From: the human T2T-CHM13v2.0 reference genome, Homo sapiens
Length of the DNA: 64,000 bases
Strand: one strand, 5' to 3'
NCBI RefSeq assembly: GCF_009914755.1
Contig: NC_060946.1
In this document: piece by piece, positions 12,541-55,560 of the stretch
Numbering within the stretch: the stretch's first letter is position 1
Layout: each line of letters starts with the position of its first letter
Program-made: the position numbers and the translations under genes
Notes under the pieces: generated by a model
Databases searched by the model: none
What the model was told of the DNA's origin: nothing
What the model saw: the letters and a program-made list of their open reading frames with translations, nothing else

Positions 12541-13322
12541 CAGAAATGGCCTGCCCTGACTGAGCCCGAAGCCTTCTGCCCTGATCTCTGCTTTTCTTTG
12601 TGTACCTGTCTGGTTACAAAGGAAGCAGCTGCCAGCTCACTGGTGTGGGACGCCATGTCTGGTCTGTGCTTTGCTGAACTGTGCTGGAATTTCACGGGCT
12701 GAAGCTGGCCCTGGGGGGTGCCGGGAGGTGAATGAGAGAAGTGTCTCAGGAGTGTTGTTCTGGGGGCTAAAATTACAGGTGATCGGACAACTGCTGTAGG
12801 AGATGGAGACAGAGCAGCACCTGAGTTGACTCTAAAACCAGAGGGCCTCTGTGCAGTGCGCTGTTGGCCGCTCTGGTTTCCTTTTCGCATCTCTGCAGCT
12901 CTTGGTATTTTCTACCTGTGTTATCAGAGAATCTCTGGCTGAGGACCCTGGAAATTTCTGCCCCCATCTCCACCCTTGGAAGCCTTTCCACAAAGAGCTT
13001 TGTAATTCACCAGGTGCCTTGCATATGGGAGGGATTACACCTTGACCTCAAATATTTGCTGTTTTCGTCACTGGCTCAGAGCCTGGGCACTGAAATAACA
13101 CTGCATGGTTGGAATCCTGGCTCCCTGACTTACCAGCTGCATGACCTTGGACAATCTACTGAACTTCCTGTGCCTTAGTTTCTTTATCCTTAAAATGGAG
13201 GTAATAATAATATTAACCACAATGTAGGCTTGTTATTATAAGGATTAAATGATTTCATGTAGGTAAGGCACTTAGCAGTACCCAGCGTAATAAGCACTTA
13301 ATGAGAGCAACTTGGTATTATT

Positions 13323-13550
13323 GCCTGCCTGCCTGCCTTCCTTGCTTCCTTCCTTCCTTCCTTCCTTTCCTTCCTTCCTTCCTTCCTTCCTTCCTTCCTT
13401 CCTTCCTTCCTTCCTTCCTTCCTTCCCTCCTTCCTCTCTCTCACCCCCTTCTTTCTTTCTTTCTCTCTCTCTTTTTTCTTTCTTTCCCCTCCCTCCCTCC
13501 CTCCCTTCCATCCTCCCTTCCTCCCTTCTTCCTTCTCTGCATCCCTCCTT
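13323..13550 (+). repeat. (CCTG)n-(CCTT)n-CT-rich polypyrimidine microsatellite
   Basis: Read directly from the sequence. Confidence 0.95.
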
Positions 13551-37479: not shown

Positions 37480-38448
37480 GGCTTCTGCAAAGGTGGCTGG
37501 CAGGGCTGAGGGGGGTTGCAGCAGAGAAAGAGAATTTTGCTTCAGAATGCCAAGCCCTTCTCTCCTTCTCTCTTGCCGCCTTTGCATGGGAGGAATGGGG
37601 CTGTAGGATGAAGTGTGTTCGGGGCCTGCCTCTGAGCCTGTTGGGAATTTGAGCATGAGGCTCAGCTGGGGGGCCGGCTGCCAGCCCCAGAGGATGGCCC
37701 CTGGATAGCTCCAAATTGTTCTGACAGGGGCCAGTGCCAGCAGATTCTTTCAGTATCAGATCTGAGGTTGTCGTTTTAGCAAAGAAGCCATTTTCAAAGA
37801 AACCAGATCCATCCCCTCTCCCTCTTACACACAATTACACCTCAACACTGGGCTTTGCAACTTAAGGAAAATAGAAAGAATCAGACTTTGGAGAGGCGCC
37901 AGCACTTGGTAGGGCAAGTCTGGGGGACCCAGGCTGTGGATGTCTTGGAACCATGGAAGGAGGAGAGCTGCTATCCAGCTGGAGGAGGGAAGAGACATGT
38001 CTTAGGCCCCTCCTGGTTGCACGCACTTCCCAAATGCCATCTCTTTCACCCCCTCCCCCGACCCCCCACAGCAACCTTAAGAGTAGGTATTGCACCCATT
38101 TTTCAGATGGAAAACACTGAGGCTGAAGAGACTGTGCTTGTCCAAGGCCACCCAGTTGCTAAATGATAAAGCTAAAACGTATTATCAGTTATACCATGCT
38201 TCAAAAACCTTTCAACTTTCATTGACACATGACATTCTAAGGTGACCAGGAGATGGAATGGATGGTTAACATTTGAAGAATGCTTTTCTTCTACATCTGG
38301 GTTTTCTTTAAAAATATGAAGATAGCCAAAATGGCCAGAGGTTTTAATTAAACATCATCTTTAGGGAGGGAGAGCTTATTATTATTCTAGTGTATCATAG
38401 AGGAAAATTCTAATGTTCTTTGGCTATTAGATCTGGAAAAGACCCTTG

Positions 38449-38677
38449 AAACCATCAAGCCACAGTAATAAAAGGACTTGGTTTGTCTCACTGTGGCCCA
38501 AGGAGAAGTAAGGTTAATAGAGACAAGACATTTCAGGGCTTCAAGACTCTTCCCTTAAAGGTGGGATCAGTTAGGGCTCCCCAGTGGGAGGTACCCGGTC
38601 TGCCAGTGTGGTAGGAGGAAAGCCAGGGGGAGTCAGGAGACTGGGTCCCAGCTGGAGAAGGTGCCCCTCTGACAGTT
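38449..38677 (+). repeat. Long inverted repeat 1, left arm (donor)
   Basis: Reverse complement of 39487-39717; about 14 substitutions and 3 small indels. Confidence 0.96.
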
Positions 38678-39486
38678 CTGTGTCCCTTTCACAGTCCCTG
38701 GATAGATAAGGCTAGAAAAGTGGCCACAGAAGTAGCTTGGGTGGAGGGATTTTTGTTTGTTTTGCATGAACAGCAGGAACCATTCAGCTCCACTGCTGAA
38801 TGGCACATTCCAACAGGTTCATTAATTAAAAACAAAAACAACAACACGATTCTCCATCGCACTTGGCTTTTACCATTCCAGCCAGTATGGACAAGGAGGC
38901 CCCTTCTTCTACCTTTTGTCATAGTCTACTCCTGGGTGGCCTTGAGAGGCAGGGTGGAGTGGTGGAAAGGCAATGGGGAGGGCAGATCTGAGCTCCACTC
39001 CTTCCTCTGGGGCTTGTTGGCTGTGTGTGCCTAGGCACATATGGGCTACCTTTGAGCTTTAGTTTTCTTATTTATACAAGGGGAATAACAATTTGTACCA
39101 TCTTGGCCTGTTTTATCTATATTTTAAAAGCTACAAGTATATGAATACATTCTATGTCCATGTATGTATCTCTCTGTATATCTATGATATATCCATTTCT
39201 ATTTATCATTTATCATCTATCTATCTATCTCTCTATCTAAAATCGGAGAAGAGTAAAATCCTTTCTGATTACTTTTTCTAACTCTAGTCCCTTCTCCAAA
39301 TCCTTTTCTTCCTATACATTTACATACATAGGTATCCATAGCAAATTTATAGTAGTTTTTCCCTTAGAAACATGAATAGTAGAACATTAAACATCATGGA
39401 ATACCACATAATACCACATATAGTATTCTGCTTGTTTCCCATTCAACAATGCGTACTAGAGATCTTTCTACTTAATATATATATAA

Positions 39487-39717
39487 AACTGTCAGAGGAG
39501 CACCTTCTCCAGCTGGGACCCAGTCTCCTGACTGCCCCCCTGGCTTTCCTCCCACCACATTGGCAGACTGGGTAGCTCCCCCTGGGGACCCCTAACTCAT
39601 CCCCACCTTTAAGGGAAGAGTCTTGGAACCTTGAAATGTCTTGTCTCTATTAACTTTACTTCTCCCTGGCCACAGTGAGACAAACCAAGTCCTTTTATTA
39701 CTGTGGATTGATGGTTT
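39487..39717 (-). repeat. Long inverted repeat 1, right arm (inserted copy)
   Basis: Reverse complement of 38449-38677; flanked on both sides by (AT)n. Confidence 0.96.
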
Positions 39718-39722
39718 GGAGG

Positions 39723-39875
39723 ATATATATATATAAATATATAATATATAAATATATAATTTATATATAATATATAAATATATAATATATAAATATATAT
39801 TATATATAATATATATTATATATAATATATATATATTATATTTACATATATATTATATATATAATATATATATTT
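39723..39875. repeat. Interrupted (TA)n tract, about 150 bp and nearly all A/T
   Basis: Read directly from the sequence. Confidence 0.95.
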
Positions 39876-41681
39876 CTTTTATGTATTTCATGAGGTTATA
39901 ATTTTAAACAGCTAATAAGTATAGAGTGATTACTATGTGCCAGGCATTATTCTAAGTCATTAACTTACATTAACTCATTTAATTCTCTCAGTTTTATGAG
40001 GGAGGTGTGCTATTGTCATCTCCATTTTACAGCTGAGGAAACTGAGGCTTAGAAAAATGAGGTAACTCGTTTAAGGTTATACTGCTAGCAAGGAATACAG
40101 CCTGTATTTAAGCCCCTTCACCCTGGCTCTAAAATATATTTAACAACTATACTATAGGTCACATTATACCATATCATATTATATATACTACTACATACTC
40201 TTATATTATTATAATTATATAATATGCATTTTCAATTTTAATAGTTCCTGCCAATTTGGCCTCCACAGTGGCTGTGTTAACACAGTTCTTTTCATATATG
40301 CAACATGAGGGGATGGAGGAATGTTAGAGCCCTGTGCTTAAGAGACTCCCATGCTTCTCTCAAATAGAAAAACAATTTATAATTTTTATTGACTTACTGA
40401 GTGTTTTTTTTCCTTCTTTTTGTCTCTTTGAAAGGGAGCAAAATTAGGGCCACGAAGATCAAGTTAATGGGAGTATTTTCATAGGGAGAGGAAGGCTGCA
40501 ATGCCAGGAAAGCTGTGACCCTTGACTTGTTGCATGCTGGAGTAATTCGGTTGAAGATAGCTTTATGTATTTATTTTGCTTTCAGAATAAGCAGTGGACC
40601 ATTTATTACACCAAGTTGTTTGACTTTGAGGACTTACATGGACTCAGGTTCAAAGGTATATGTGGCTGTGTTTTGAACACACATACACAGGGTTTTGCTT
40701 TCTGACTCAAAGCTGTCCGCTGGCCAGGCTCATGGTGGCAGCAAGGGCACTCACTCATCTGTCTCCCTTCTTGTTGCCTATGGATGGCACTTGGGTGAGA
40801 GCAGTGGGATGGTCACAAGGAGGAGGATGGACTGCCGAGAGGGAGGCTGGGTGGACCCCAGCCAAGAAGGACGCTGGGGTCTCATTATTATGGGAGCTAG
40901 AAGGCCTGGTTTAGGAAAGAATTCCTGTTCTGATGAAAGCTCTTCAGTGGACTCTTAGGATAAAGTATCATCAAATGGCTTTTACAAGGGCCAGTGTGGA
41001 CCCTGCCTACCTCATCCTCATAGTCTCATCACTGGTCTGTCCTGCTCCAGCTGTTCATACTCTGTCTCTCTGGCTCTTGGCCCATGACACCCCCTCGGTT
41101 TTGAACAGTCCTCATTAACTTCTCATTCTCTAGGTCTCCTTTGGTTCCTTTCCCTGATCACTCCTTGGCATTGGTACAGACGAACAGTCATAAACCTTGC
41201 CCATATTTTAAGCATGCTGAAAAACACCATCTCTAGTAAAACCCAAATTCTCCAAAGCTGCATGGGAAACTCCCAGAGGGGATCATTCCTGCGCTGGGAG
41301 AAAGAACTTAGGGCTGCGTGCCACCCAGAGGGATAAACCTAACCCACTTTAGAGGGTAAGCACCCACTATGCTCTCTGCATTACTTGATAAGTCTAGTCC
41401 TGTCTTCTGGTGGACATGATACCCTAGCACCCTCCCAGAGAAGAAAGTGGAGATTTCTAAATGCCAACCCTGCAGGAGATCACAAACATAATACTGTAAT
41501 TTTCATAGTAAGTTTGGTGCCCTTACTATGTGCCAGGCACTGTACCAAGCTCCTTACTTGCCTATCAGTCATCCCAGCTGCCTGATGAGCTGTCTCAGGC
41601 TAGGGAAGCCAAATGGCTTGCCCAAGCTCACACCACTTGCAACCTATACTTGCTTAGCCTATCTCCAAAACCTGTGTTTCC

Positions 41682-41964
41682 AATCAGTCTCTCATATAGA
41701 CCAAGGGCTACAACTTTTTAGACTTGGGAAGATTCTACCCATTTTGCGACCTCTCCACATGAGTCTTTGGCTCCCCACTGTTGGGGTCCCCGTCAGTCTG
41801 CTTATCTTTGGTTTTCTTCCTCTCCAGACATGCCTTCCCTGCTGCCCCCAAATTTTATTACTGTATAGTCAGTTCTGGGATCCTAACATAACCAAGCCTT
41901 ACCTCCTAACCCAGTGCCCTTTCAACTCTCTCAGTGGTTCCCAGACTTTTCAACACTATGGAAT
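41682..41964 (+). repeat. Long inverted repeat 2, left arm (donor)
   Basis: Ungapped reverse complement of 43487-43769, 270/283 identical; also seen as near-identical ORF peptides at 41528+ and 43492-. Confidence 0.98.
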
Positions 41965-43354
41965 TTTTTAAAATTAATTTTTCCCTCCAATAAGTTCTGT
42001 GTTTGGAACAGTTATCCGACACAATTTCATGTGTTGAGTGTTGATTAACTTTCCATTAAAAAACAAATTAAAATATAACTAGAACTGCTGATACTAGCCA
42101 GTCATTATTCTGACACAATCAGCTAATATACTAATTAATTATAGCCGAAAGCAAGGACGGTTGGTGTTTTCATAAGCCTGGGAAGTTTTCTCATGGGTTC
42201 CTGGGTGATTGCATTGTCGGATTTGGGTTGGCTTACTGATATGCCTAAAATAGCTCCTGGCTTCTTTGGTATATCGCTGTCCTTTGCCCCTCCTGAGAAT
42301 CTTTAGTTTCATGCCAGCTTAGCATCTCTTCTCCCTGTGGGCAGGTCCCATGCATTTACTGCCATTGTCACTTCTCCCTGTTACCCACAGTGCTGCCACC
42401 ATGCCTGGGATAGACAGCAGGTAACTGATGTGTCCTAGTTGAGGTCCCTATCCTTTCAGAGGAGGTGACATGGGTTCAGATATTTTCCTATGTTCATGTC
42501 TGGCATCCAGGGGTACACAAAGTATTGATTCTAGCTAAAGGGACTTACTAAATACTGTTTGACAGGAGGCCCACAGGTGTCTATGTGGGCTGCAGTGGAA
42601 CTAAGAGGTCTTTTTGTTCAGCTGTTAAAAAATTAGTGTTTGTAGCTTCAGAGGGGCCCCAGAGAACCTTTCCTGACCCATTTAGAGGCCATCTGTGTGG
42701 CTAGGATGGCTTTGCTGTCACAGAAGGGACAGTCCACACTACCCAACACTCAAGTCTGATTTATGTTCATGTAAATCCGATCACCTAATGGTGGCATTCA
42801 CGGCTTGGAGACAAGAAACTATAAGTGTTTCCAAGCCTGCAGCCACCTGGCTTTTTGTGGGGGTGGGGAAGGGAAGGAAAGCTGTACGATCTGGCCTCAG
42901 AGAGCCCAAGGTAAAGTTCAGTTAGTGGAAAAACAGAGCCCTAGATGATTGGGCGGGGGGTGGGTACTGGGGAGTGGAGAGGGGAAGTCCTGAGCTGACC
43001 AAGCCTCCAAGAGCCATTCCGGAACTAGAGATCTTAAATACTACATGGTAATTATCCCCTCTGCCTCTGCCCATGAGGGTGTCAGGCACAGGGCCGCCTG
43101 GCTGCCTGCAGAGAAGAGCTGTTTCATTCAGAAACTTCAGAGCTCCTGCAATGCCTGGATTAGGATGTGGGGATGGTGAGTTTCGCAACCAGGGTCAGAT
43201 TTCATGAAGACTTGGTTTCGTGACTTGAGGTGTTTGACTAAGGTGTTTGCATCTCATGTATTTAGGAAGGGCTCCCTTTTGACTTAGACTTTATCATCAT
43301 GAATAAGCTCCCTGCCTTTTCGATTTGGAAACATGATAGCTCTAGTGAGCTCTG

Positions 43355-43800
43355 CTACTCCCAAGCTTGGGCAGGTTCTTTGCCTCAGTTTCCTCATCTC
43401 TAAAATGGGGGGAAATATATTATGTACCACGTGGTAACTTCATTGGCAATTAAGTGAAATACTTCATGGAATGTTTAGCACTAAATATTCCTTAGTGTTG
43501 AAAAGGCTGGGAACCACTGAGACAGTTGAAAGGGCACTGGGTTAGGAGGTAAGGCTTGGTTATGTTAGGATCCCAGAACTGACTATACGGTAATAAAATT
43601 TGGGGGCAGCAGGGAAGGCATGTCTGGAGAGGAAGAAAATCAAAGATAAGCAGACTGAGGGGGGCCCCAAAAGTGGGGAGCCAAAGACTCAGGTGGAGAG
43701 GTCGCAAAATGGGTAGAATCTTCCCAAGTCTAAAAAGTTGTAGCCCTTAGTTTATACAAGAGACTGATTCTTGGCACAGAATAGCTCAATAAGAATAAGC
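43355..43800 (+). mobile_element. MIR split by the right arm of inverted repeat 2 (one of dozens of MIRs in the window, not listed individually)
   Basis: Core TGCCTCAGTTTCCTCATCTCTAAAATGGGG before the insert; tail TTGGCACAGAATAGCTCAATAA after it. Confidence 0.8.
43487..43769 (-). repeat. Long inverted repeat 2, right arm (inserted copy, splits a MIR)
   Basis: Reverse complement of 41682-41964; MIR sequence resumes on both sides. Confidence 0.98.
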
Positions 43801-45789
43801 ATGAGCTTTTAGTAGTAGTGTTGTTATAGAGCAGAGCTGATATTCTCACTTCACTTTCGGTGAGGAAAATGGCGCTCTGTGGTGTGATGTGATGTTTTCC
43901 AGGGTCATATAGAGAGAGCTGAGTTTCAATTCAAAATCGTGGTTTGATCCCCCCGCCTCCAAATCTAATGTGTTCCATTTTGTCACAGTGCTTCCCACAG
44001 GGCAGAGAAAGAAACAACAAAGTTCCTACTCTATTTTCACAACTCTTCACATTTTAGAGTCTTAAGTCCATTTGATCTCATTTGATGACAACTTCGCAAC
44101 GAGGAAAGCAGGATGGTGATTGGGGGGTCGGTCATAGTTCGTAGTTAGTGGATGTCAGTATTGAGAATGGCGGGGTTCTGTGGCTTAGCCATATAGCCAA
44201 TACATGGAATGGGATTGGAACCCATGTCTTCTGAGGGCAAGCCCAACACTTGTCAAGGATCTGGTGCTGCCCTTCCCTCTTTAGACAGCTCCCATTGATA
44301 AGCAGAGGTAGAAGTCACTAGGGTAGCCAAAGAGAGGGCCCTAGAAATGGAATGGTGACAATGAACTTGGCTGAAGAGTCAGCAACCGCTCCCCTATCCA
44401 CTGCCAGGGCTAGGAGGTGCAGTGTGGCATGGAGGAGGAGCACTGGCTGGAGTTAGGAGGCCTAAGGTCTAGTCCTAGTTCATCATCTGACTCTGGAGTC
44501 CCCTTGGTGATACTGACCTCCCTGGGTTTGGTCTCTTATCTGTAAAACAGCAGGATATTGGCTCTATGTGGTGTGTATTTCACTGAATGCCTACTATGGT
44601 CAAGTTTTTCTGGCTCTAAGTTCCCTTGGAAAGGGCTCTCTACTTTAGCTGAATAACTCAGCACCTAAATCTGTCAACCACACCCTTCAGTAGGTAACTT
44701 TGTTAGAAATATGGTCTATTAAGGTAAGAGCCAGGATTTCTGTGGTTGCAAAAGTGGATGCGGGCTCTGAACAAAACCTCTAGTGAGCTGAGATACTTTA
44801 TCAGATGACATATTTGACCACCAAACTTCTGTTGGAGCAGGGCTGATTTGCCAAACAGACAGCAACCTTGCAGACTTAGTCGATGGCTAGAATTAAGACT
44901 CAAGGTCACTTCAGGGCCTGTCACTGATTGTGGGAGGGCTTGGTAAAAATTGAACCTCATTAACACCACTGAAGAAGCTGATAGACAAGAAATGGGATTA
45001 AGACTCAATACTCATCAAAATAAGGCTTTCCTTATCCACAGCCTACCTGAGCAGTGCCTCACTCTGGAAAATGTGGTTCATGGCTCGGCTCAAACATTTT
45101 CTGTTGCTGAGAGGACTTCTCTCATGGAAGTCTGGCTCAGATGAACACATGTGTGATCTGATGGAACCTTTGTTTAAGTGAATGAGGAGGGTATTTGGAA
45201 GACTTAGATCAAACGTGTGCCCCATTGGGCAGTCACTATCTGCTCCCCTGACAGGGAGAAACCCCAGTGACAGGATAGAAAGCTCCAAAGATCCTGAGGA
45301 AGTTTGGAAGGTCAAACTTCACCACTGCAAGGACTGAGAGATCCAAGAATCTCAGAATCCAGGTTGGTCTCCAGGGTGCAGTTCTGAACAAATGAGTGCA
45401 GTGGATAAAAAGCTTATACTTAAGGTGGGAAGGTGGGTGTGGGTTCCAGTTCCTTCTTTGGCTGATTCTCTTTTGGCCTGGATTTCCTCACTTGTCATCC
45501 ATGCCATGTCACAAACCCAGTGCCTACAGGGACCAGGCACAGAAGCTGGATATTTGAGTATCAGACATATTGGAATATTACTCACTCCTACCAAATATGT
45601 TTATGGTTCCCCATTCTCTTGGTTTCCATTTTGGAGAGCTAAACAGGTACTAAAAATGATTTCTTTATTATAAGACAAGCAATAAAACAGTGGGCAAGTG
45701 TGATGATAAACAGCATCTGAGCTTTGGCTTTGGAGTTGGGGAGACAATAGAGAGTGGCAGTAACTGTGGTGAACCGTACAGTCCAGGTC

Positions 45790-46533: not shown

Positions 46534-46592
<59 letters not shown>

Positions 46593-46731
46593 AGAAAGAA
46601 AAGAAAGAAAGAAAGAAAGAAAACAAAGAAAGGAAAGAAAGAAAAAAAAAGAAAGAAAGAAGGAAAGAAAGAAAGAGGGAGGGAGGGAGAGAGGGAGAGA
46701 GGGAAGGAAGGAAGGAGAGAGAGAGAGAGAC

Positions 46732-46769
<38 letters not shown>

Positions 46770-46852
46770 GAAGAAAGGAAGAAAGAAAGAAAGGAAGAAA
46801 GGAAGAAAGAAAGAAAGAGAAAGAAAGAGAGAAAGAAAGAAAGAAAGAAAGA
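46533..46852 (+). repeat. Compound (GT)n(GA)n(GAAA/GGAA)n microsatellite
   Basis: Read directly; about 290 bp of almost pure purine. Confidence 0.96.
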
Positions 46853-47309
46853 GATTGGTTTGAAACATTGGGAGCTGAGCTTAATGAGAAAAGGCCATTC
46901 CTAACTGCTAAGCTACCGTATTAAACAGTGGCAAGTACCTTGGAAAATAAAACAGAAACCACTGCCCATCTTTTTCTAACGGAGAAAGACAAGAGATGGC
47001 TTGACCAGAGTGGAGATTTAGAACTTCAGGTGCTGATAAATATGGTAACATCATGGGGTGCTTTGGCAGCTGGATAGATTTTATTTATTCAGGGCTCCTT
47101 TAAGCCAGAGGAGATTCCTGGAGGCTGCTAAAATAGAATGCTCCACCTGGATAGTTAACATCTGGATTTTATTTTGTTTCAAAAAGTTAATTACAAATAG
47201 TTCGAATTCCTTCTGGTATCCCTCTGAGAAGAGTTTCTTACTGGGTGGCTCACAAGCGGGGAGACAGAAAGGGAAAAAAACTAGATTGATATTGCTCAGG
47301 AGAAACAGG

Positions 47310-49711: not shown

Positions 49712-52700
49712 TTATTTGGGAGAGCTGTTTATTGTATTCCCCTCTTGGAGAGACATGTGGCTATTAGCATAGTAAAAGCTCTGAGAAGTCCTGCTGCATG
49801 GTGACCTGTTTGGCTCTGTTTAATCCAGTGTTCTCTGAACATATCTAGCCAAGGAACTAATTTTCCCAAGAAGCACCTACAAATGCAGTTGGTGAGACAC
49901 TGCCCAGATGAGGATTCTGAAAACCCCTTTTGCCCACTTGCCTGCCATTGTGATTGCTGAGTAGGGAAGAAGAAATTAGGAAGTATCATCTGCATTACAC
50001 AGGGAAGCTGCTCTCCTAGGGTTGCCAAACAGAAATGGCTGTAGTGGTGCCAGTGGGTGCTTTGTAGGGACCAGAAGAAAAAGGAGGAAGGGAAGGCTGA
50101 CCTTCAAGGTCACACATTTGCCAGATTTAAAGTTCCTTCCTGTGGTCATGACTTGTTTTATAATCTTGCTTGGCTCAGTTCTGGGCACACATCAGATTTT
50201 TAAATCCTAGGATCTTGTTTATACCGTTAAGGACATGATTGAAGGACATTGTGGTGAGTGTGAAGGTGAGATGTTTCTGATTGAAGGTCCATGGGGCAGG
50301 CACCCTGCGAGCAGGTAATGAACAGTAGGGGACATACCGGTGCAACCCCACCCTGGTCCCCTGGTCGTCTGGGCCAGATCTCTCCCCTCTCTGTTCTATA
50401 CTTCTCTTACATCACCGTCCTACCTAATCATTTTACCGATAGGAGCACCTTTGGGATTCTGATTAAAGCTATGCATACAAATTTCAAGAGCTTCAGAAAT
50501 TCTCCTAAAAGCTATCTTGGATCATTAGAACACTTGCCCTAGAGTATCACTGAGTCAATAATGGTGTTGAAACTAAACAGCAACAAAATCCCCCCAAAAA
50601 GGTAACCTAACTTAGTCTGAAATTGTCTGAAAATTAATGGCACTGCCAGTTCAGTGGCTGCTCAGAGCGTTTTGGTGAAGAAATTGGCTGATGGATATTT
50701 TGCAGTAGTCTACAGGATTTGACGTGGGATGCCATCTTTATGGACATGGCTCTGCTGGGCAAAGCAAGGACGGGCACATCCAGCCTATGCGGTCCATCAG
50801 GGGCACTCACATTTAGAATGGGGGAGTCTTAGTTAGCCCAGGGGCTGGGGGCAGCATGGTAGTGTAGAAAAAGGGGCCAGTGCCTCCAGAAAATGGGACC
50901 CCAGGCCTGGCTCTGCTCCTTCTGCTGTGTGATTCTGGTTGAGTGGCCTTCCCTTTGAGTCCTCTGGATGAAGTTAAGGAGAAGTCTTGGGTTCTCAAGT
51001 AGTCACTATTCAGACTCTCGCTTTCAGAGTATTTAAAGGAGGAAAGGAAACAGAAGGATAGGGCTGGTGGACTTAAAAGGCCGTGTGTTTGCCGCCACCC
51101 CATTTGCTCCCAGGGCTGGGTGTTTGTCTCCCCTCCGGCGCTGGGCCTCCTGCTTGGCCTCCAGCTCTTGCACCATTAACTGCAGTCAGAAAAGCTGATG
51201 TCACTGTGGCCGGCCTAGGGGGAAAGTCTCAGGATAAAACTGCTTCCACCTGGATCTGGAGAAGGGGAAGTGACTGGCAAGAGATTCGCAGGTAGGGCTC
51301 AGAGACCAGGAGGAATCCAGTCTGGGTAAGAATTCCCTGTCATGGGGCTCTGAAGCCACGGGCCAGGCAGGTAGTGGATTTCAAGCCAGCCAGCGGGGTC
51401 ACTTGGCCCCTGCAGCTACTCCTCGCCCCCTCCTGCATAATTTCCTATTTCCTGCCTCCTCCTCCTCTGACACAGTTATAAATAACCTCGAGGCTGGCCT
51501 CTGCGCTTAAGTATAGGTGAGCCAGAGGAAAGTGGAGGGGATCAAGGTGGAGCTGGATCTGCCACTTGGCCAGGGGGTCACAGGGTTTCAGATTGCTCAG
51601 GGGAATTTTGTTTTCTTGTTTTTTCCACTAGGGAGTGAGGTAGTGAAAGAGGAAATAAGCTGTGTTGGCATGGGGAGGCTTGGCCTTGCAGGCCGGTGCT
51701 GGGTTTCACCCGCAAGGAGCTGCCTCTCTGCTCACTGCAGATCCCCAGGACCAAAGGTCTGGAAAGAGGCTTAGTGAGAAGGCATCTCAGGACACAAAGA
51801 GGACACGATGCCTTGCTGGTGAGGTCCTGCGGTCTCCTTCTCGAGGCCCAGCCCGGCCCCATATTGGAGGCCAAACATGTAGAAGGGTGTATCTCATTTT
51901 TTACCTTTTTTTCTCAACCACCAGCCAACGATGGGTATGTGATTTCTAAGGATGTCCATTGACTATAAAGGTCCCATTAATACATATGCTATGGACAGAT
52001 TCTCTCCTTGAACACAGGTTTATGGAGCACCTACTATATTCCAGGTGCTGGGCAGAGTGCTAAGGTCACAAAAATGAATCAGCTGTGGCCTCTACAGCCT
52101 GTTCCCCTCTTGGCATAGATCTGCCCTTCCCCCTCCACAGTCTGGACAATCAAGGACCTGGAGTAAGCACACTCTAGGGGCCGCGTCTCCCAGCATATCT
52201 TTTGTTTTCGAAAGTTCAAAAAACAGAAGAGGAGGATTCTGAAACAGCAAACTTGCTGGGTCATCCATAGAGTATATTAACTGGCTATCTTGCTATCTGT
52301 CCATAACTTGCTACCTGTCCATAGTGTATATTAACTTCCTGGGAGCCCACTCACTGCCTGACTTCCTGTTCTGCGCATGGGCCCAAGGGAAGTTCTCGCA
52401 ACCATAGTTTTCTGTGATATCCATCCTACCACATGGCTTCCTGGGAAACCCATTAGCTTTTTTGTTTGTTTTAGAGCCCAAGGGAATCAGGGCCTTGAGG
52501 GGATTTTTTGGTGTGGGGGGTGGTGCAAGCTTCTAACACTGAGAGTGGGTGCTTTTCTGATTCCTATGAAGGTGGAGTGTAGGTGTCGTTCCTGGCTCAG
52601 CAGAGTCAGCCCTCTCATCCTATTCAGGCCGTCTCTGAGGCTGGCTCCTGTGCCCAAGCCCTTCCTCACTCCCTCAGGGCATGATCACAGGGCATTTCCT

Positions 52701-52721: not shown

Positions 52722-52916
52722 TGTGTGTGTGTGTGTGTGTGCGTGCGCGTGTGTGTGTGTGTGTGTGGTGTGTGTGGTGTGTGTTCTACTCCGTGTGTGT
52801 GTCATCCTCTGCTCATCCACCCATTCCACTGCGTGTGTGTGTGTGTGTGTGTGTGTGTGGTGTGTTCTACTCCGTGTGTGTGTCATCCTCCTCTGCTCAT
52901 CCACCCATTCCACTGC
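52722..52916 (+). repeat. (GT)n-anchored tandem duplication, period about 84 bp
   Basis: GTGTTCTACTCCGTGTGTGTGTCATCCTC...CCCATTCCACTGC occurs twice, each copy preceded by (GT)n. Confidence 0.93.
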
Positions 52917-53839
52917 AGCACCTAGCATCACCTAGGGGCCTGGAAAACCTGCACCTGAAAGCCGTAACTCCCCGGCACCTGGCTGGTTGACTTCTTCCCC
53001 CTTAACCCCATTTACTTTGAGGATGGAGGTAGTCTTTAGGGTCAGGCTGAGATTTGTCCTGACCCATGCTTAGTTGGCACATCTTGCTTCTGCAACATGC
53101 TTGCTTAGGGTTGGGCAGGGGCCCGGAGAAAACAAGTCGTGGCATCACCAGGACCTGATTACCCCCAGGCACCAAGGAGCACCTGGGACCAAGGGGAGGT
53201 TTGGGGCTTGGGATATGTTTTAGGGTGAAGGATCACAGAAGCTTACTCATACCTATTTGAAAGCCAAGTCAACAGATGTGGGTTCTTGGAAGGAGAAAAG
53301 GAGGTTAACTGCTTACTTATTAGATTAGAAGTGATGTATGAATGATAAAGAGCAGAGTTTGCCAGATATTGCTAATTAATTCTCTCACTGCTTATTTTAT
53401 GGATGATAAAGGGTAGGGAGAGACATGTTAATTGGCTTCAAGGTCTCTGAGCCAAGCATGACCAATCCGAGAAACCCAGGTGGCTTCATGCTCTTTCAAT
53501 ATGATCTCATCCCTGCACTAGAGAATTTATATTTTTGAGCATAAAGAATACCCACCGGTGCAATCTCCCAGGCTCTTCTGAAGGGTTTGGAGAGACAGTG
53601 GAGGATGTCAAAAGAGATGAACTTAGAGTCAAAAAAAGCAGAGATGGAATCCCGTCTCTGCCTTTTACCACTGGAGTTAGTTGACTAAAATGTAAACTCT
53701 GAGCCTTGGTTTTCCCAATTGCAAAATGGGAAAGACCCCATTTATAATGCAGGTGGGTGAGAGATGCCAGCAGTGACAGGGACTTTCAGTAAAGGCTGAG
53801 CTGAAGCTGAATTTGAAAAGCACATTCTTTACGTTCCAT

Positions 53840-53995
53840 TGAAGATCTGCACTTGCTCTTCTGCTAACCGCTAAGGTGTCATCAGTGCTGTGCTATTAAA
53901 ATCAGAAGTCAAAGAAGGTGGGTGTGGCCCTCATAGCCAGAGTTGATAGAAATGGATTTATTAATATAATGGATGGTCCATAGAAAGGTGAATGA
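53840..53995 (+). repeat. Dispersed direct duplication, copy 1 (donor)
   Basis: 153/156 identical to 55145-55300. Confidence 0.98.
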
Positions 53996-54338: not shown

Positions 54339-54764
<426 letters not shown>

Positions 54765-54974: not shown

Positions 54975-55560
54975 GCATCGAAAGCCTCAAACATGTGCAT
55001 ACACTTTAACTAGCAATCTTACTTCTAGAAATTTAGTCCTAAGAAATAACTAGGTAATGGAGTCCATTGCTACATTGTTTATCCCCAAATTAATCTAAAT
55101 GTCTATTGCAAATAGACTGCTTAGATTATGGTGCGTTCATACAGTGAAGATCTGCACTTCCTCTTCTGCTAACCGCTAAGGTGTCATCAGTGCTGTGCTA
55201 TTAAAATCAGAAGTCAAAGGAGGTGGGTGTGGCCCTCATAGCCAGAGTTGATAGAAATGGATTTATTAATATAATGGATGGTCCAAAGAAAGGTGAATGA
55301 AAGAGTCATAAAAGATGTTGAGGTAGTTCTCTATTGATGCCAGAATAGCCCTATGGTGCACTTTTGAGTAACAGAAGCCAATTTGTTAAAAACAACAACA
55401 ACAACAACAAAAAAAAACAGAGAGAGAGAGATGAATGTGCATCCAGATGCTTAGAGAAGAGTCTGAATGTCTGTATACTAAATATCAACACTAGTTACTC
55501 TGCGCTGTGGGATTTTGGATGATTTTAATTTGATCCAGTGTTTTCTGGAAAATAAAATTT
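54975..55560 (+). mobile_element. L1ME-like fragment, interrupted by the duplicated segment 55145-55300
   Basis: TAGCAATCTTACTTCTAGAAATTTAGTCCTAAG...ATTATGGT..CATACA. Confidence 0.65.
55145..55300 (+). repeat. Dispersed direct duplication, copy 2 (inside an L1ME-like fragment)
   Basis: 153/156 identical to 53840-53995. Confidence 0.98.

What the first reader, a model, noticed from the sequence alone, without database searches (positions are those of the whole stretch)
41682..43769. 283-bp, 95%-identical inverted repeat (1522-bp spacer) able to fold a long dsRNA stem in both TIMP3 and SYN3 pre-mRNA
Seen: 41682-41964 and 43487-43769 align without gaps, with 13 mismatches and a 65-bp perfect run (41863-41927). 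The right copy sits between TTAGCAC and TTGGCACAGAATAGCTCAATAA of one MIR. The left copy runs into a hAT-like terminus (CAGTGGTTCCCAGACTTT) that appears to continue only on the left, so left is the donor. Inference: the stem is better paired than typical inverted Alu pairs and would form on either transcribed strand. It is a candidate for ADAR hyper-editing, endo-siRNA production or dsRNA sensing, and for inversion of the spacer or arm-to-arm gene conversion.
Basis: partly seen in the sequence, partly recalled or inferred. Interest (0 to 1): 0.8.

Follow-up and report, generated by a model that had tools for sequence, protein, structure and literature searches.

The report
Unique edited hairpin in TIMP3 intron
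A 287-base piece of TIMP3 intron 1 was copied backwards into an old repeat 1.5 kb downstream, so the intron RNA can fold into a long, nearly perfect hairpin that is probably A-to-I edited; this is a known kind of structure with no sign of further function.

Summary
Arms 41682-41968 and 43483-43769 are 287 nt, gapless and 95.1% complementary, with 14 mismatches and a 1514-nt spacer. They are the only two copies in the T2T genome, so this is a local inverted duplication and not a pair of interspersed repeats. The right arm is the derived copy. It interrupts one MIR, which reads through once the arm is left out, with no target-site duplication and about 3 bases lost. In silico, both transcript strands pair 269-273 of 287 positions in register, at about -530 kcal/mol.

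One published TIMP3-strand editing site maps into the right arm. Six more map to a second, unrelated, equally unique inverted repeat 3 kb upstream. The ADAR reading is therefore supported, though thinly. Nothing supports siRNA production, dsRNA sensing, inversion or gene conversion. The 65-bp perfect run is what chance gives (P=0.35). The CHM13 spacer is not inverted.

The most likely origin is a template switch or break repair in the primate lineage. The present role is probably that of a neutral, nuclear ADAR substrate. It is a new member of a known kind and of modest interest.

The parts
41682..41968 (.). Left arm, the inferred source copy: about 251 nt of single-copy sequence followed by about 36 nt of a transposon-like terminus
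43483..43769 (.). Right arm, the inferred derived copy in reverse orientation, inserted into a MIR
41969..43482 (.). Spacer (hairpin loop), 1514 nt. It is single-copy in the genome apart from the MIR core and is in the ancestral orientation in CHM13
41933..41968 (+). Transposon-like terminus (starts CAGTGGTTCCCAGAC) inside the left arm, reading into the spacer
   Evidence: The 21-mer pattern has 274 genome hits against 12 for the reversed control. Similarity to 28 fetched loci lies mostly in the first ~36 nt
43483..43519 (-). The same terminus copied in the right arm, so the two termini face each other across the spacer
43332..43482 (+). MIR, 5' and core part, ending exactly at the right arm
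   Evidence: nhmmer with my own MIR profile: aligned 43375-43471, envelope 43350-43491; envelope 43332-43481 with the first profile
43770..43800 (+). MIR 3' tail, resuming immediately after the right arm
   Evidence: With the arm left out, one continuous hit covers profile 105-252 at 36.8 bits, against 28.0 bits and profile 105-202 when intact. About 3 profile positions are missing at the joint. MAFFT against 12 window MIRs agrees
41517..41642 (-). A separate MIR in the opposite orientation just left of the left arm. It was not shown to reach the arm
   Evidence: profile 196-239 and 69-114
43561..43562 (+). Mapped position of the published editing site GRCh37 chr22:33207118. The nearest plus-strand A is 43562, and its partner 41889 lies in the 65-nt perfect run
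   Evidence: The mapping is my own arithmetic. A length-variable TA tract lies between this site and the six sites that fix the offset

Best explanation
The structure is a locus-specific inverted duplication. It is not a pair of repeat-family members and not a transposon.

Origin. A 287-nt stretch of TIMP3 intron 1, which is also a SYN3 intron on the other strand, was copied in reverse orientation into a MIR 1.5 kb downstream. The stretch consists of about 251 nt of single-copy DNA plus the first ~36 nt of an old DNA-transposon terminus. The copy has no target-site duplication and about 3 MIR bases were lost. I infer that the copy arose by replication template switching, or by fold-back templated repair of a break in the MIR. 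The point order 3-2-1-4 in the four-point template-switch model fits. The K2P distance of 0.05 suggests roughly 20-40 million years of independent decay (recalled rates).

Consequence. Whenever the intron is transcribed, the arms can fold into a 287-bp stem that is 96% paired when G.U pairs are counted. TIMP3-sense RNA has 135 uninterrupted pairs. Nuclear ADAR deaminates adenosines in such a stem. The intron is then spliced out and degraded, so the duplex should normally not reach cytoplasmic sensors.

What is shown: the repeat, its uniqueness in the genome, the direction of copying, the lack of a duplication at the target, and the in-silico fold. What rests on one published site plus six in a neighbouring repeat: editing. 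What is inferred: the mechanism of origin, the age, nuclear confinement and neutrality.
For: - Repeat and statistics.
- Only two copies in 3.1 Gb. As a control, the same search with the neighbouring 183-nt MIR piece returned 14 other loci, so old repeats with a conserved core are visible to it.
- The right arm splits one MIR. With the arm left out, a single profile hit covers positions 105-252 at 36.8 bits, against 28.0 bits when intact, with about 3 positions missing and no duplicated flank.
- The arm straddles a boundary between unique DNA and a transposon terminus, which a transposase cut would not produce.
- Fold: cofold gives -536 kcal/mol (plus strand) and -529 (minus strand), against -152 +/- 6 with a shuffled partner. 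In the full 2088-nt minimum-energy fold, 269 (plus) and 273 (minus) of 287 positions pair in register. Counting wobble pairs, 96.5% and 96.2% are paired.
- Editing: PMC9021465 (passages read) lists seven same-strand TIMP3 intronic sites taken from REDIportal and seen in synovial RNA-seq. Six map to plus-strand A at a single offset, the only all-A offset among 6001 tried. All six lie in the arms of a second unique inverted repeat. The seventh maps to 43561/43562 in the right arm.
- The 3-2-1-4 pattern is one of the two majority patterns that create single inverted repeats in great-ape genomes (PMC7954356, passages).
Against: - No outgroup genome could be examined, so the insertion is inferred from the MIR only, and the age rests on recalled substitution rates.
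- No microhomology is visible at either junction (read). The short-range template switches in PMC7954356 operate over tens to hundreds of nucleotides, whereas this copy is 287 nt and lies 1.5 kb from its source.
- Editing evidence for this repeat is one site. At the offset that fits the other six sites it falls on a T (43561), next to an A (43562). A length-variable TA tract (39723-39888) lies between it and the six calibrating sites, so its position could be off by some bases. No site is reported for the left arm.
- Mismatches crowd at the arm ends: 7 of 14 fall in the outer 25 nt on each side, against 2.4 expected, binomial P=0.005. Simple uniform decay does not predict this.
- The own-genome search is a word-seeded look, so very old diverged relatives of the 251-nt part could be missed.
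Confidence: 0.7

Rival explanations
1. The repeat is actively maintained. Arm-to-arm gene conversion, perhaps with selection for a functional dsRNA (for example one that tunes TIMP3 pre-mRNA processing or responds to ADAR levels in inflammation), keeps the core similar, and the duplication is much older than 5% divergence suggests.
For: - The core 41707-41943 is 97.0% identical, against 86% in the outer 25 nt of each end; 7 of 14 mismatches lie in the ends, P=0.005.
- PMC9021465 reports that editing at the TIMP3 sites differs between normal and established rheumatoid arthritis synovium.
Against: - The longest perfect run is at chance level, P=0.35.
- CA versus TG at 41693/41694 is best read as one CpG lost separately in each arm.
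- Crowding of mismatches at the ends can also come from error-prone synthesis at the junctions, or from how an alignment is extended.
- The neighbouring second repeat shows no such pattern by eye.
- The repeat is deep in a 47-kb intron, 7.5 kb from exon 1, and has no Rfam match.
- The rheumatoid arthritis correlation is confounded by TIMP3 expression.
Confidence: 0.1
2. The copy was made through RNA. A fragment of the intron transcript was reverse-transcribed and captured at a break, or inserted by the LINE-1 machinery, in the opposite orientation.
For: The source and target lie in one transcription unit. The source ends in a T/A-rich stretch at 41960-41975. Endonuclease-independent insertions lack target duplications (recalled).
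Against: There is no poly(A) tail, no target-site duplication and no LINE-1-type target motif at the junctions. An unspliced 287-nt internal intron piece is an unusual template. The short distance and inverted orientation are typical of fold-back or template-switch events.
Confidence: 0.07
3. It is transposon-made: either two insertions of one repeat family in opposite orientation, or a single DNA transposon spanning 41933-43519 whose ~36-nt terminal inverted repeats face each other across the spacer.
For: The terminus motif is a genuine transposon end, with 274 hits against 12 for the control. The two copies bracket the spacer in the orientation of real terminal inverted repeats.
Against: - Homology runs 251 nt outside the termini.
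- The 8 nt flanking the termini (41925-41932 versus 43520-43527) are not a direct repeat.
- One MIR lies half inside and half outside the putative element.
- The arm, the spacer and the 41925-42330 stretch have no other copy in the genome.
Confidence: 0.03

Closest known systems
Inverted Alu pairs (IRAlus) and other inverted-repeat dsRNAs edited by ADAR
   Same: Two reverse-complementary arms of about 300 nt lie within a few kb in one transcript. Both give a long rod-like duplex. This one has a published A-to-I site mapping to an arm.
   Different: The arms are not members of a repeat family, with only two copies in the genome. Pairing is 95-96%, against a median of 84.7% for edited repetitive dsRNAs. 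The longest run of Watson-Crick pairs is 65, or 135 with G.U in the TIMP3 sense, against a median of 31.
Long, highly paired predicted dsRNAs of the human dsRNAome (Andrews and Bass preprint, PMC11838218; abstract, sections 7 and 10 and passages read)
   Same: It belongs to the rare tail of that catalogue. Only 2,018 of 5,134,754 predictions are both longer than 300 bp and more than 96% paired, and most such structures are not in mature mRNA.
   Different: At 287 bp it falls just under their length cut. It is intragenic, whereas 88% of theirs are intergenic, and most of theirs form between inverted LINEs.
Template-switch mutations that create inverted repeats (four-point model; Walker et al. 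2021, PMC7954356, passages read)
   Same: A reverse-complement copy of nearby sequence is written at a switch point, in the order 3-2-1-4, creating a single inverted repeat without a target duplication.
   Different: The scale differs. Those events work over tens to hundreds of nucleotides, whereas this copy is 287 nt and was taken from 1.5 kb away. It is closer in size to small fold-back or templated insertions, and no microhomology can be recognised after 5% decay.
hAT-type DNA transposons (family name recalled from the CAGTGG... terminus, not tested against a repeat library)
   Same: Each arm holds about 36 nt of a terminus found 274 times in the genome, and the two copies face each other like terminal inverted repeats.
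   Different: There is no 8-bp target duplication, homology extends 251 nt beyond the termini, the structure is single-copy, and a MIR straddles the would-be end.
Large sex-chromosome palindromes kept alike by arm-to-arm gene conversion (recalled)
   Same: Both have an inverted-repeat architecture with a unique spacer.
   Different: Those arms are kilobases to megabases long and more than 99% identical. This one is 287 nt, 95% identical, and shows signs of independent decay in each arm.

Membership tests
ADAR-edited intramolecular long dsRNA | Two reverse-complementary arms within one transcription unit | tested here: met
   Arms confirmed. Both lie in TIMP3 intron 1 and in a SYN3 intron according to the hub annotation.
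ADAR-edited intramolecular long dsRNA | Stable long duplex predicted for the transcript | tested here: met
   -536 and -529 kcal/mol, against -152 with a shuffled partner. 269-273 of 287 positions pair in register in the full-length fold.
ADAR-edited intramolecular long dsRNA | Clusters of A-to-G differences in RNA on both arms | tested here: inconclusive
   One published site maps into the right arm and none is reported for the left. Six sites on both arms of the neighbouring repeat show that the intron is edited. REDIportal itself and the paper's supplements were not available.
Inverted pair of interspersed repeats (IRAlu-like) | Each arm is a member of a multi-copy repeat family | tested here: not met
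   Only the two arms match in the genome. The MIR control query returned 14 other loci.
DNA transposon with terminal inverted repeats (hAT-like) | Target-site duplication flanking the termini | tested here: not met
   The 8 nt outside the termini differ as direct repeats. There is also no duplication around the whole right arm.
DNA transposon with terminal inverted repeats (hAT-like) | Other copies of the element in the genome | tested here: not met
   Spacer: 1 of 1 match is itself. 41925-42330: itself plus the 44-nt arm overlap only.
Template-switch or fold-back inverted duplication | Reverse-complement copy of nearby sequence inserted without target duplication | tested here: met
Template-switch or fold-back inverted duplication | Microhomology at the switch points | tested here: inconclusive
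   None is evident at 43482/43483 or 43769/43770 against the source flanks, but 5% later divergence could hide 2-4 nt.
Template-switch or fold-back inverted duplication | Ancestral state without the copy in an outgroup species | not testable with these tools
   No primate genome other than this assembly is held; the genome search reports no relatives.
LINE-1-mediated retrocopy | Poly(A) tail and flanking target-site duplication | tested here: not met
   Neither is present at the junctions.

The most novel reading that the evidence does not exclude
TIMP3 intron 1 holds at least two independent single-locus inverted duplications of the same design. Each has a 234-287-nt source and a copy written backwards 0.8-1.5 kb downstream into a repeat. 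A third small local direct duplication is also present. In the boldest reading these are not neutral scars. The better-conserved core of the arms would reflect gene conversion or selection, and the edited hairpins would act as ADAR-dependent modulators of TIMP3 (or SYN3) pre-mRNA output in inflamed or neural tissue. Alternatively, the locus marks a recurrent template-switch hotspot.
Probability: 0.07. Interest if true: 0.6.

Novelty: new member of a known kind. Interest (0 to 1): 0.3.

Why it matters
TIMP3 is a disease gene (Sorsby fundus dystrophy, and it lies in a locus associated with macular degeneration; both recalled). One paper has already linked editing in this intron with rheumatoid arthritis without saying what structure is edited. 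The edited sites sit on two unique, non-Alu hairpins made by local inverted duplication. That explains those sites and gives a clean natural substrate for ADAR studies, because reads from non-repetitive arms map unambiguously. It also documents a template-switch-type event much larger than those usually catalogued. It does not by itself show any effect on TIMP3 or SYN3 expression.

Tried and rejected
- Repeat-family origin: rejected.
- Known RNA family: Rfam gave 0 matches for 40000-45500 at E<=1 and 0 for the whole window at gathering score.
- Coding: a 147-aa ATG ORF (41528-41971, plus strand) covers the left arm, but it has no Pfam match at E<=1. The same frame in the right arm has 2 stops. 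A first translation of the right arm was one base out of frame and is not used. I read the ORF as a by-product of a pyrimidine-rich strand.
- Transposon continuation as proof of direction: of 28 fetched loci sharing the terminus, 10 hit the left copy and 6 of those run 16-139 nt past 41968. However, 10 hit the right copy and 4 of those run 4-18 nt past 43483. A profile of the 28 termini scores the left copy at 30.1 bits (positions 8-63) and the right at 26.8 bits (8-44). The best locus, L036, beats shuffles beyond the arm (3 of 500 reach the score) only on the left (219 of 500 on the right), but it is the best of 28. No inverted partner terminus was found in 41900-42500 or in L036. This gives weak support only.
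- Left-flank MIR as an outgroup for the outer-end mismatches: the MIR alignment stops at 41642 with the envelope ending at 41665, so it could not be used.
- The first MIR profile, built from genome loci, was contaminated by an adjacent Alu. It was replaced by a profile built from 13 window copies.
- Relation between the two inverted repeats: none found.
- Earlier findings of this scan were not open.
- Literature: TIMP3 + 'inverted repeat' + 'RNA editing' gave 6 papers, all reviews by title. TIMP3 + A-to-I + ADAR + intron gave 26 papers, 15 listed, with only PMC9021465 specific. TIMP3 + REDIportal gave 1 paper. None describes this repeat. Subscription journals were not covered.

Full report
**1. 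Observation**

- The repeat finder reports one pair in 40500-45000: 41682-41968 and 43483-43769, 287 nt, 95% complementary, 1514 nt apart.
- Counting base by base gives 14 mismatches (7 transitions, 7 transversions), no gaps, and a longest identical run of 65 nt at 41863-41927.
- Outside the arms, similarity collapses at once.
- Across the whole 64-kb window this is the longest and best inverted pair. The other 24 of the 25 longest pairs are 74-93% complementary and join the ~300-nt repeats that NCBI masks. I read those as Alu elements from their sequence, which is recalled and was not tested against a library.

**2. Not a repeat family**

The window's assembly (T2T-CHM13, 3.1 Gb) can be searched.
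- The 287-nt arm matches only itself and its partner (2 of 2 candidates scored).
- The spacer 41969-43330 matches only itself.
- 41925-42330 matches itself plus the 44 nt shared with the other arm.
- As a sensitivity control, the adjoining 183-nt MIR piece returned 14 other loci through its conserved core. An old, abundant repeat is therefore visible to this search, although a rare or very diverged one might not be.

**3. Which arm is the copy**

I built a MIR profile from 13 MIR copies in the window.
- On the intact sequence it aligns to 43375-43471 (profile 105-202, 28.0 bits) and stops at the right arm.
- With the arm left out in a script, one hit runs through the joint (profile 105-252, 36.8 bits). 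About 3 profile positions are missing and no flank is duplicated.
- A MAFFT alignment with 12 window MIRs likewise places 43770-43800 on the MIR 3' tail.

The right arm is therefore an insertion into an existing MIR, and the left arm is the source. The MIR halves are still collinear across the right arm, so the spacer in CHM13 has not been inverted since.

**4. The transposon-like terminus**

Each arm ends, on its inner side, with about 36 nt beginning CAGTGGTTCCCAGAC.
- A 25-mer of it has 5 other genomic hits at 3 mismatches or fewer, against 0 for the reversed control.
- A 21-mer degenerate pattern has 274 hits against 12.

It is a genuine repeat terminus shared by several families. The name 'hAT' is my recollection and was not tested.

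Whether the element continues into the spacer on the left only is weakly supported.
- Of 28 fetched loci, 10 hit the left copy and 6 of them extend 16-139 nt beyond 41968. However, 10 hit the right copy and 4 of them extend 4-18 nt beyond 43483.
- A profile of the 28 termini gives 30.1 bits on the left against 26.8 bits on the right.
- The best locus, L036, beats dinucleotide shuffles beyond the arm on the left (3 of 500 reach the score) and not on the right (219 of 500). It is, however, the best of 28.

The two termini now face each other like the ends of a 1587-nt element. That reading fails on three counts: the 8 nt outside them are not a direct repeat, homology continues 251 nt further out, and a MIR straddles the would-be end.

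**5. Origin (inferred)**

The copied unit straddles a junction between unique DNA and a transposon end. It lies 1.5 kb from its source, is inverted, lacks a target duplication and comes with a small deletion. This fits a DNA-templated event: a replication template switch of the 3-2-1-4 type, or fold-back repair of a break.
- Walker et al. (PMC7954356, passages read) state that the 3-2-1-4 and 1-4-3-2 patterns are the majority and generate single inverted repeats. Their events span tens to hundreds of nucleotides, so this one is larger.
- I see no microhomology at either junction, and 5% later decay may hide it.
- There is no A-tail or LINE-1-type signature, which argues against an RNA route.

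**6. Age and conversion**

The K2P distance is 0.0505. With recalled primate substitution rates this means roughly 20-40 million years, a value I could not test because no other primate genome is held.

Against ongoing gene conversion:
- The 65-nt run is expected by chance (P=0.35).
- CA versus TG at 41693/41694 is most simply one CpG lost separately in each arm.

In its favour, or in favour of error-prone synthesis at the junctions:
- 7 of 14 mismatches lie in the outer 25 nt at the two ends, against 2.4 expected (binomial P=0.005). The core is 97.0% identical and the ends 86%.

This pattern remains unexplained.

**7. RNA**

- Cofolding the arms gives -536 kcal/mol in the TIMP3 sense and -529 in the SYN3 sense, against -152 +/- 6 for a shuffled partner.
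- In minimum-energy folds of the whole 2088 nt, 269 and 273 of 287 positions pair in register.
- Four of the seven transition mismatches are G.U in the TIMP3 sense and three in the SYN3 sense. That gives 96.5% and 96.2% pairing, with A.C mismatches at the remaining transitions.
- From that mismatch table, TIMP3-sense RNA has an uninterrupted 135-bp helix at 41793-41927, counting two G.U pairs.
- For scale, Andrews and Bass (PMC11838218; abstract, sections 7 and 10 and passages read) give medians for edited repetitive dsRNAs of 297 bp, 31 contiguous pairs, 84.7% paired and -410 kcal/mol. They find only 2,018 of 5,134,754 predicted dsRNAs that are both longer than 300 bp and more than 96% paired. 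This stem is just under their length cut.
- Rfam has no match.

**8. Published editing**

PMC9021465 (passages read) called REDIportal-known sites in synovial RNA-seq on GRCh37. It lists seven TIMP3 intronic sites on the gene's strand.

I converted the coordinates in three steps: the paper's GRCh38 exon 1 start, the hub's exon 1 position in the window, and a recalled GRCh37-to-GRCh38 offset.
- At a shift of -2, six sites all fall on plus-strand A. This is the only all-A offset among the 6001 tried.
- All six lie in the arms of a second inverted repeat: 38473, 38501, 38507 and 38510 in 38444-38677, and 39636 and 39658 in 39487-39722.
- That repeat is about 92% identical with three small indels and an 809-nt spacer. 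It is unrelated in sequence to the first and is also two-copy in the genome.
- The seventh site maps to 43561 (T), next to 43562 (A), inside the right arm of the repeat under study. Its partner, 41889, lies in the perfect run.
- A TA-rich tract that may vary in length lies between the six calibrating sites and the seventh, so the exact base is uncertain. The site would leave the arm only if the two assemblies differ there by more than about 78 nt.

The intron is therefore edited at non-Alu hairpins in vivo, and this hairpin very probably is too. The evidence for it is still a single site.

**9. What it most likely does**

Nothing beyond being an ADAR substrate in the nucleus.
- It lies 7.5 kb into a 47-kb intron, far from splice sites, and is removed with the intron.
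- I found no data for small RNAs, sensor activation or inversion.
- The disease correlation in PMC9021465 is confounded by lower TIMP3 expression.

**10. Verdict**

The direction of copying and the dsRNA/ADAR reading are supported; the other proposed roles are not. Long edited intronic hairpins and template-switch inverted repeats are both known, so this is a new, clean, non-repetitive example and not a new kind. Three literature searches found no description of this repeat.

Noticed in passing
window 38444-38677 and 39487-39722: A second, unrelated inverted repeat in the same intron. It is about 234 nt, about 92% identical, with three small indels and an 809-nt spacer, and it has only two copies in the genome. 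Six published TIMP3-strand editing sites map onto its two arms. Its right arm sits inside a TA-rich tract (39473-39486 and 39723-39888), so it also looks like a backwards copy written downstream of its source.
   Followed up: partly
window 53837-53995 and 55142-55300; also 52629-52695 and 54696-54762: A 159-nt direct repeat at 97% identity, 1305 nt apart, with only two copies in the genome. A weaker 67-nt direct pair (82%) lies 2067 nt apart. Both are just downstream of the RefSeq enhancer at 52806-53307. This is a third small local duplication in this intron.
   Followed up: partly
window 41933-43519: After the duplication, the two copies of the transposon terminus face each other across the spacer and mimic a 1587-nt element with ~36-nt terminal inverted repeats. 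There is no 8-bp target duplication.
   Followed up: yes
window 41528-41971 (+): A 147-codon ATG ORF spans a MIR remnant and the whole left arm. It has no Pfam match, and the same frame in the right arm has two stops. It is probably an effect of the pyrimidine-rich strand, which has a GC skew of about -0.33.
   Followed up: yes
window 41682-41706 and 41944-41968: Half of the 14 arm mismatches lie in the outer 25 nt of each end (P=0.005). Possible causes are gene conversion of the core, error-prone synthesis at the junctions, or an alignment-edge effect.
   Followed up: partly
window 13308-13527 and 46592-46863: Long pyrimidine-rich (CCTT-type) and 8-nt-period tandem repeats showed up in the window-wide repeat scan.
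   Followed up: no
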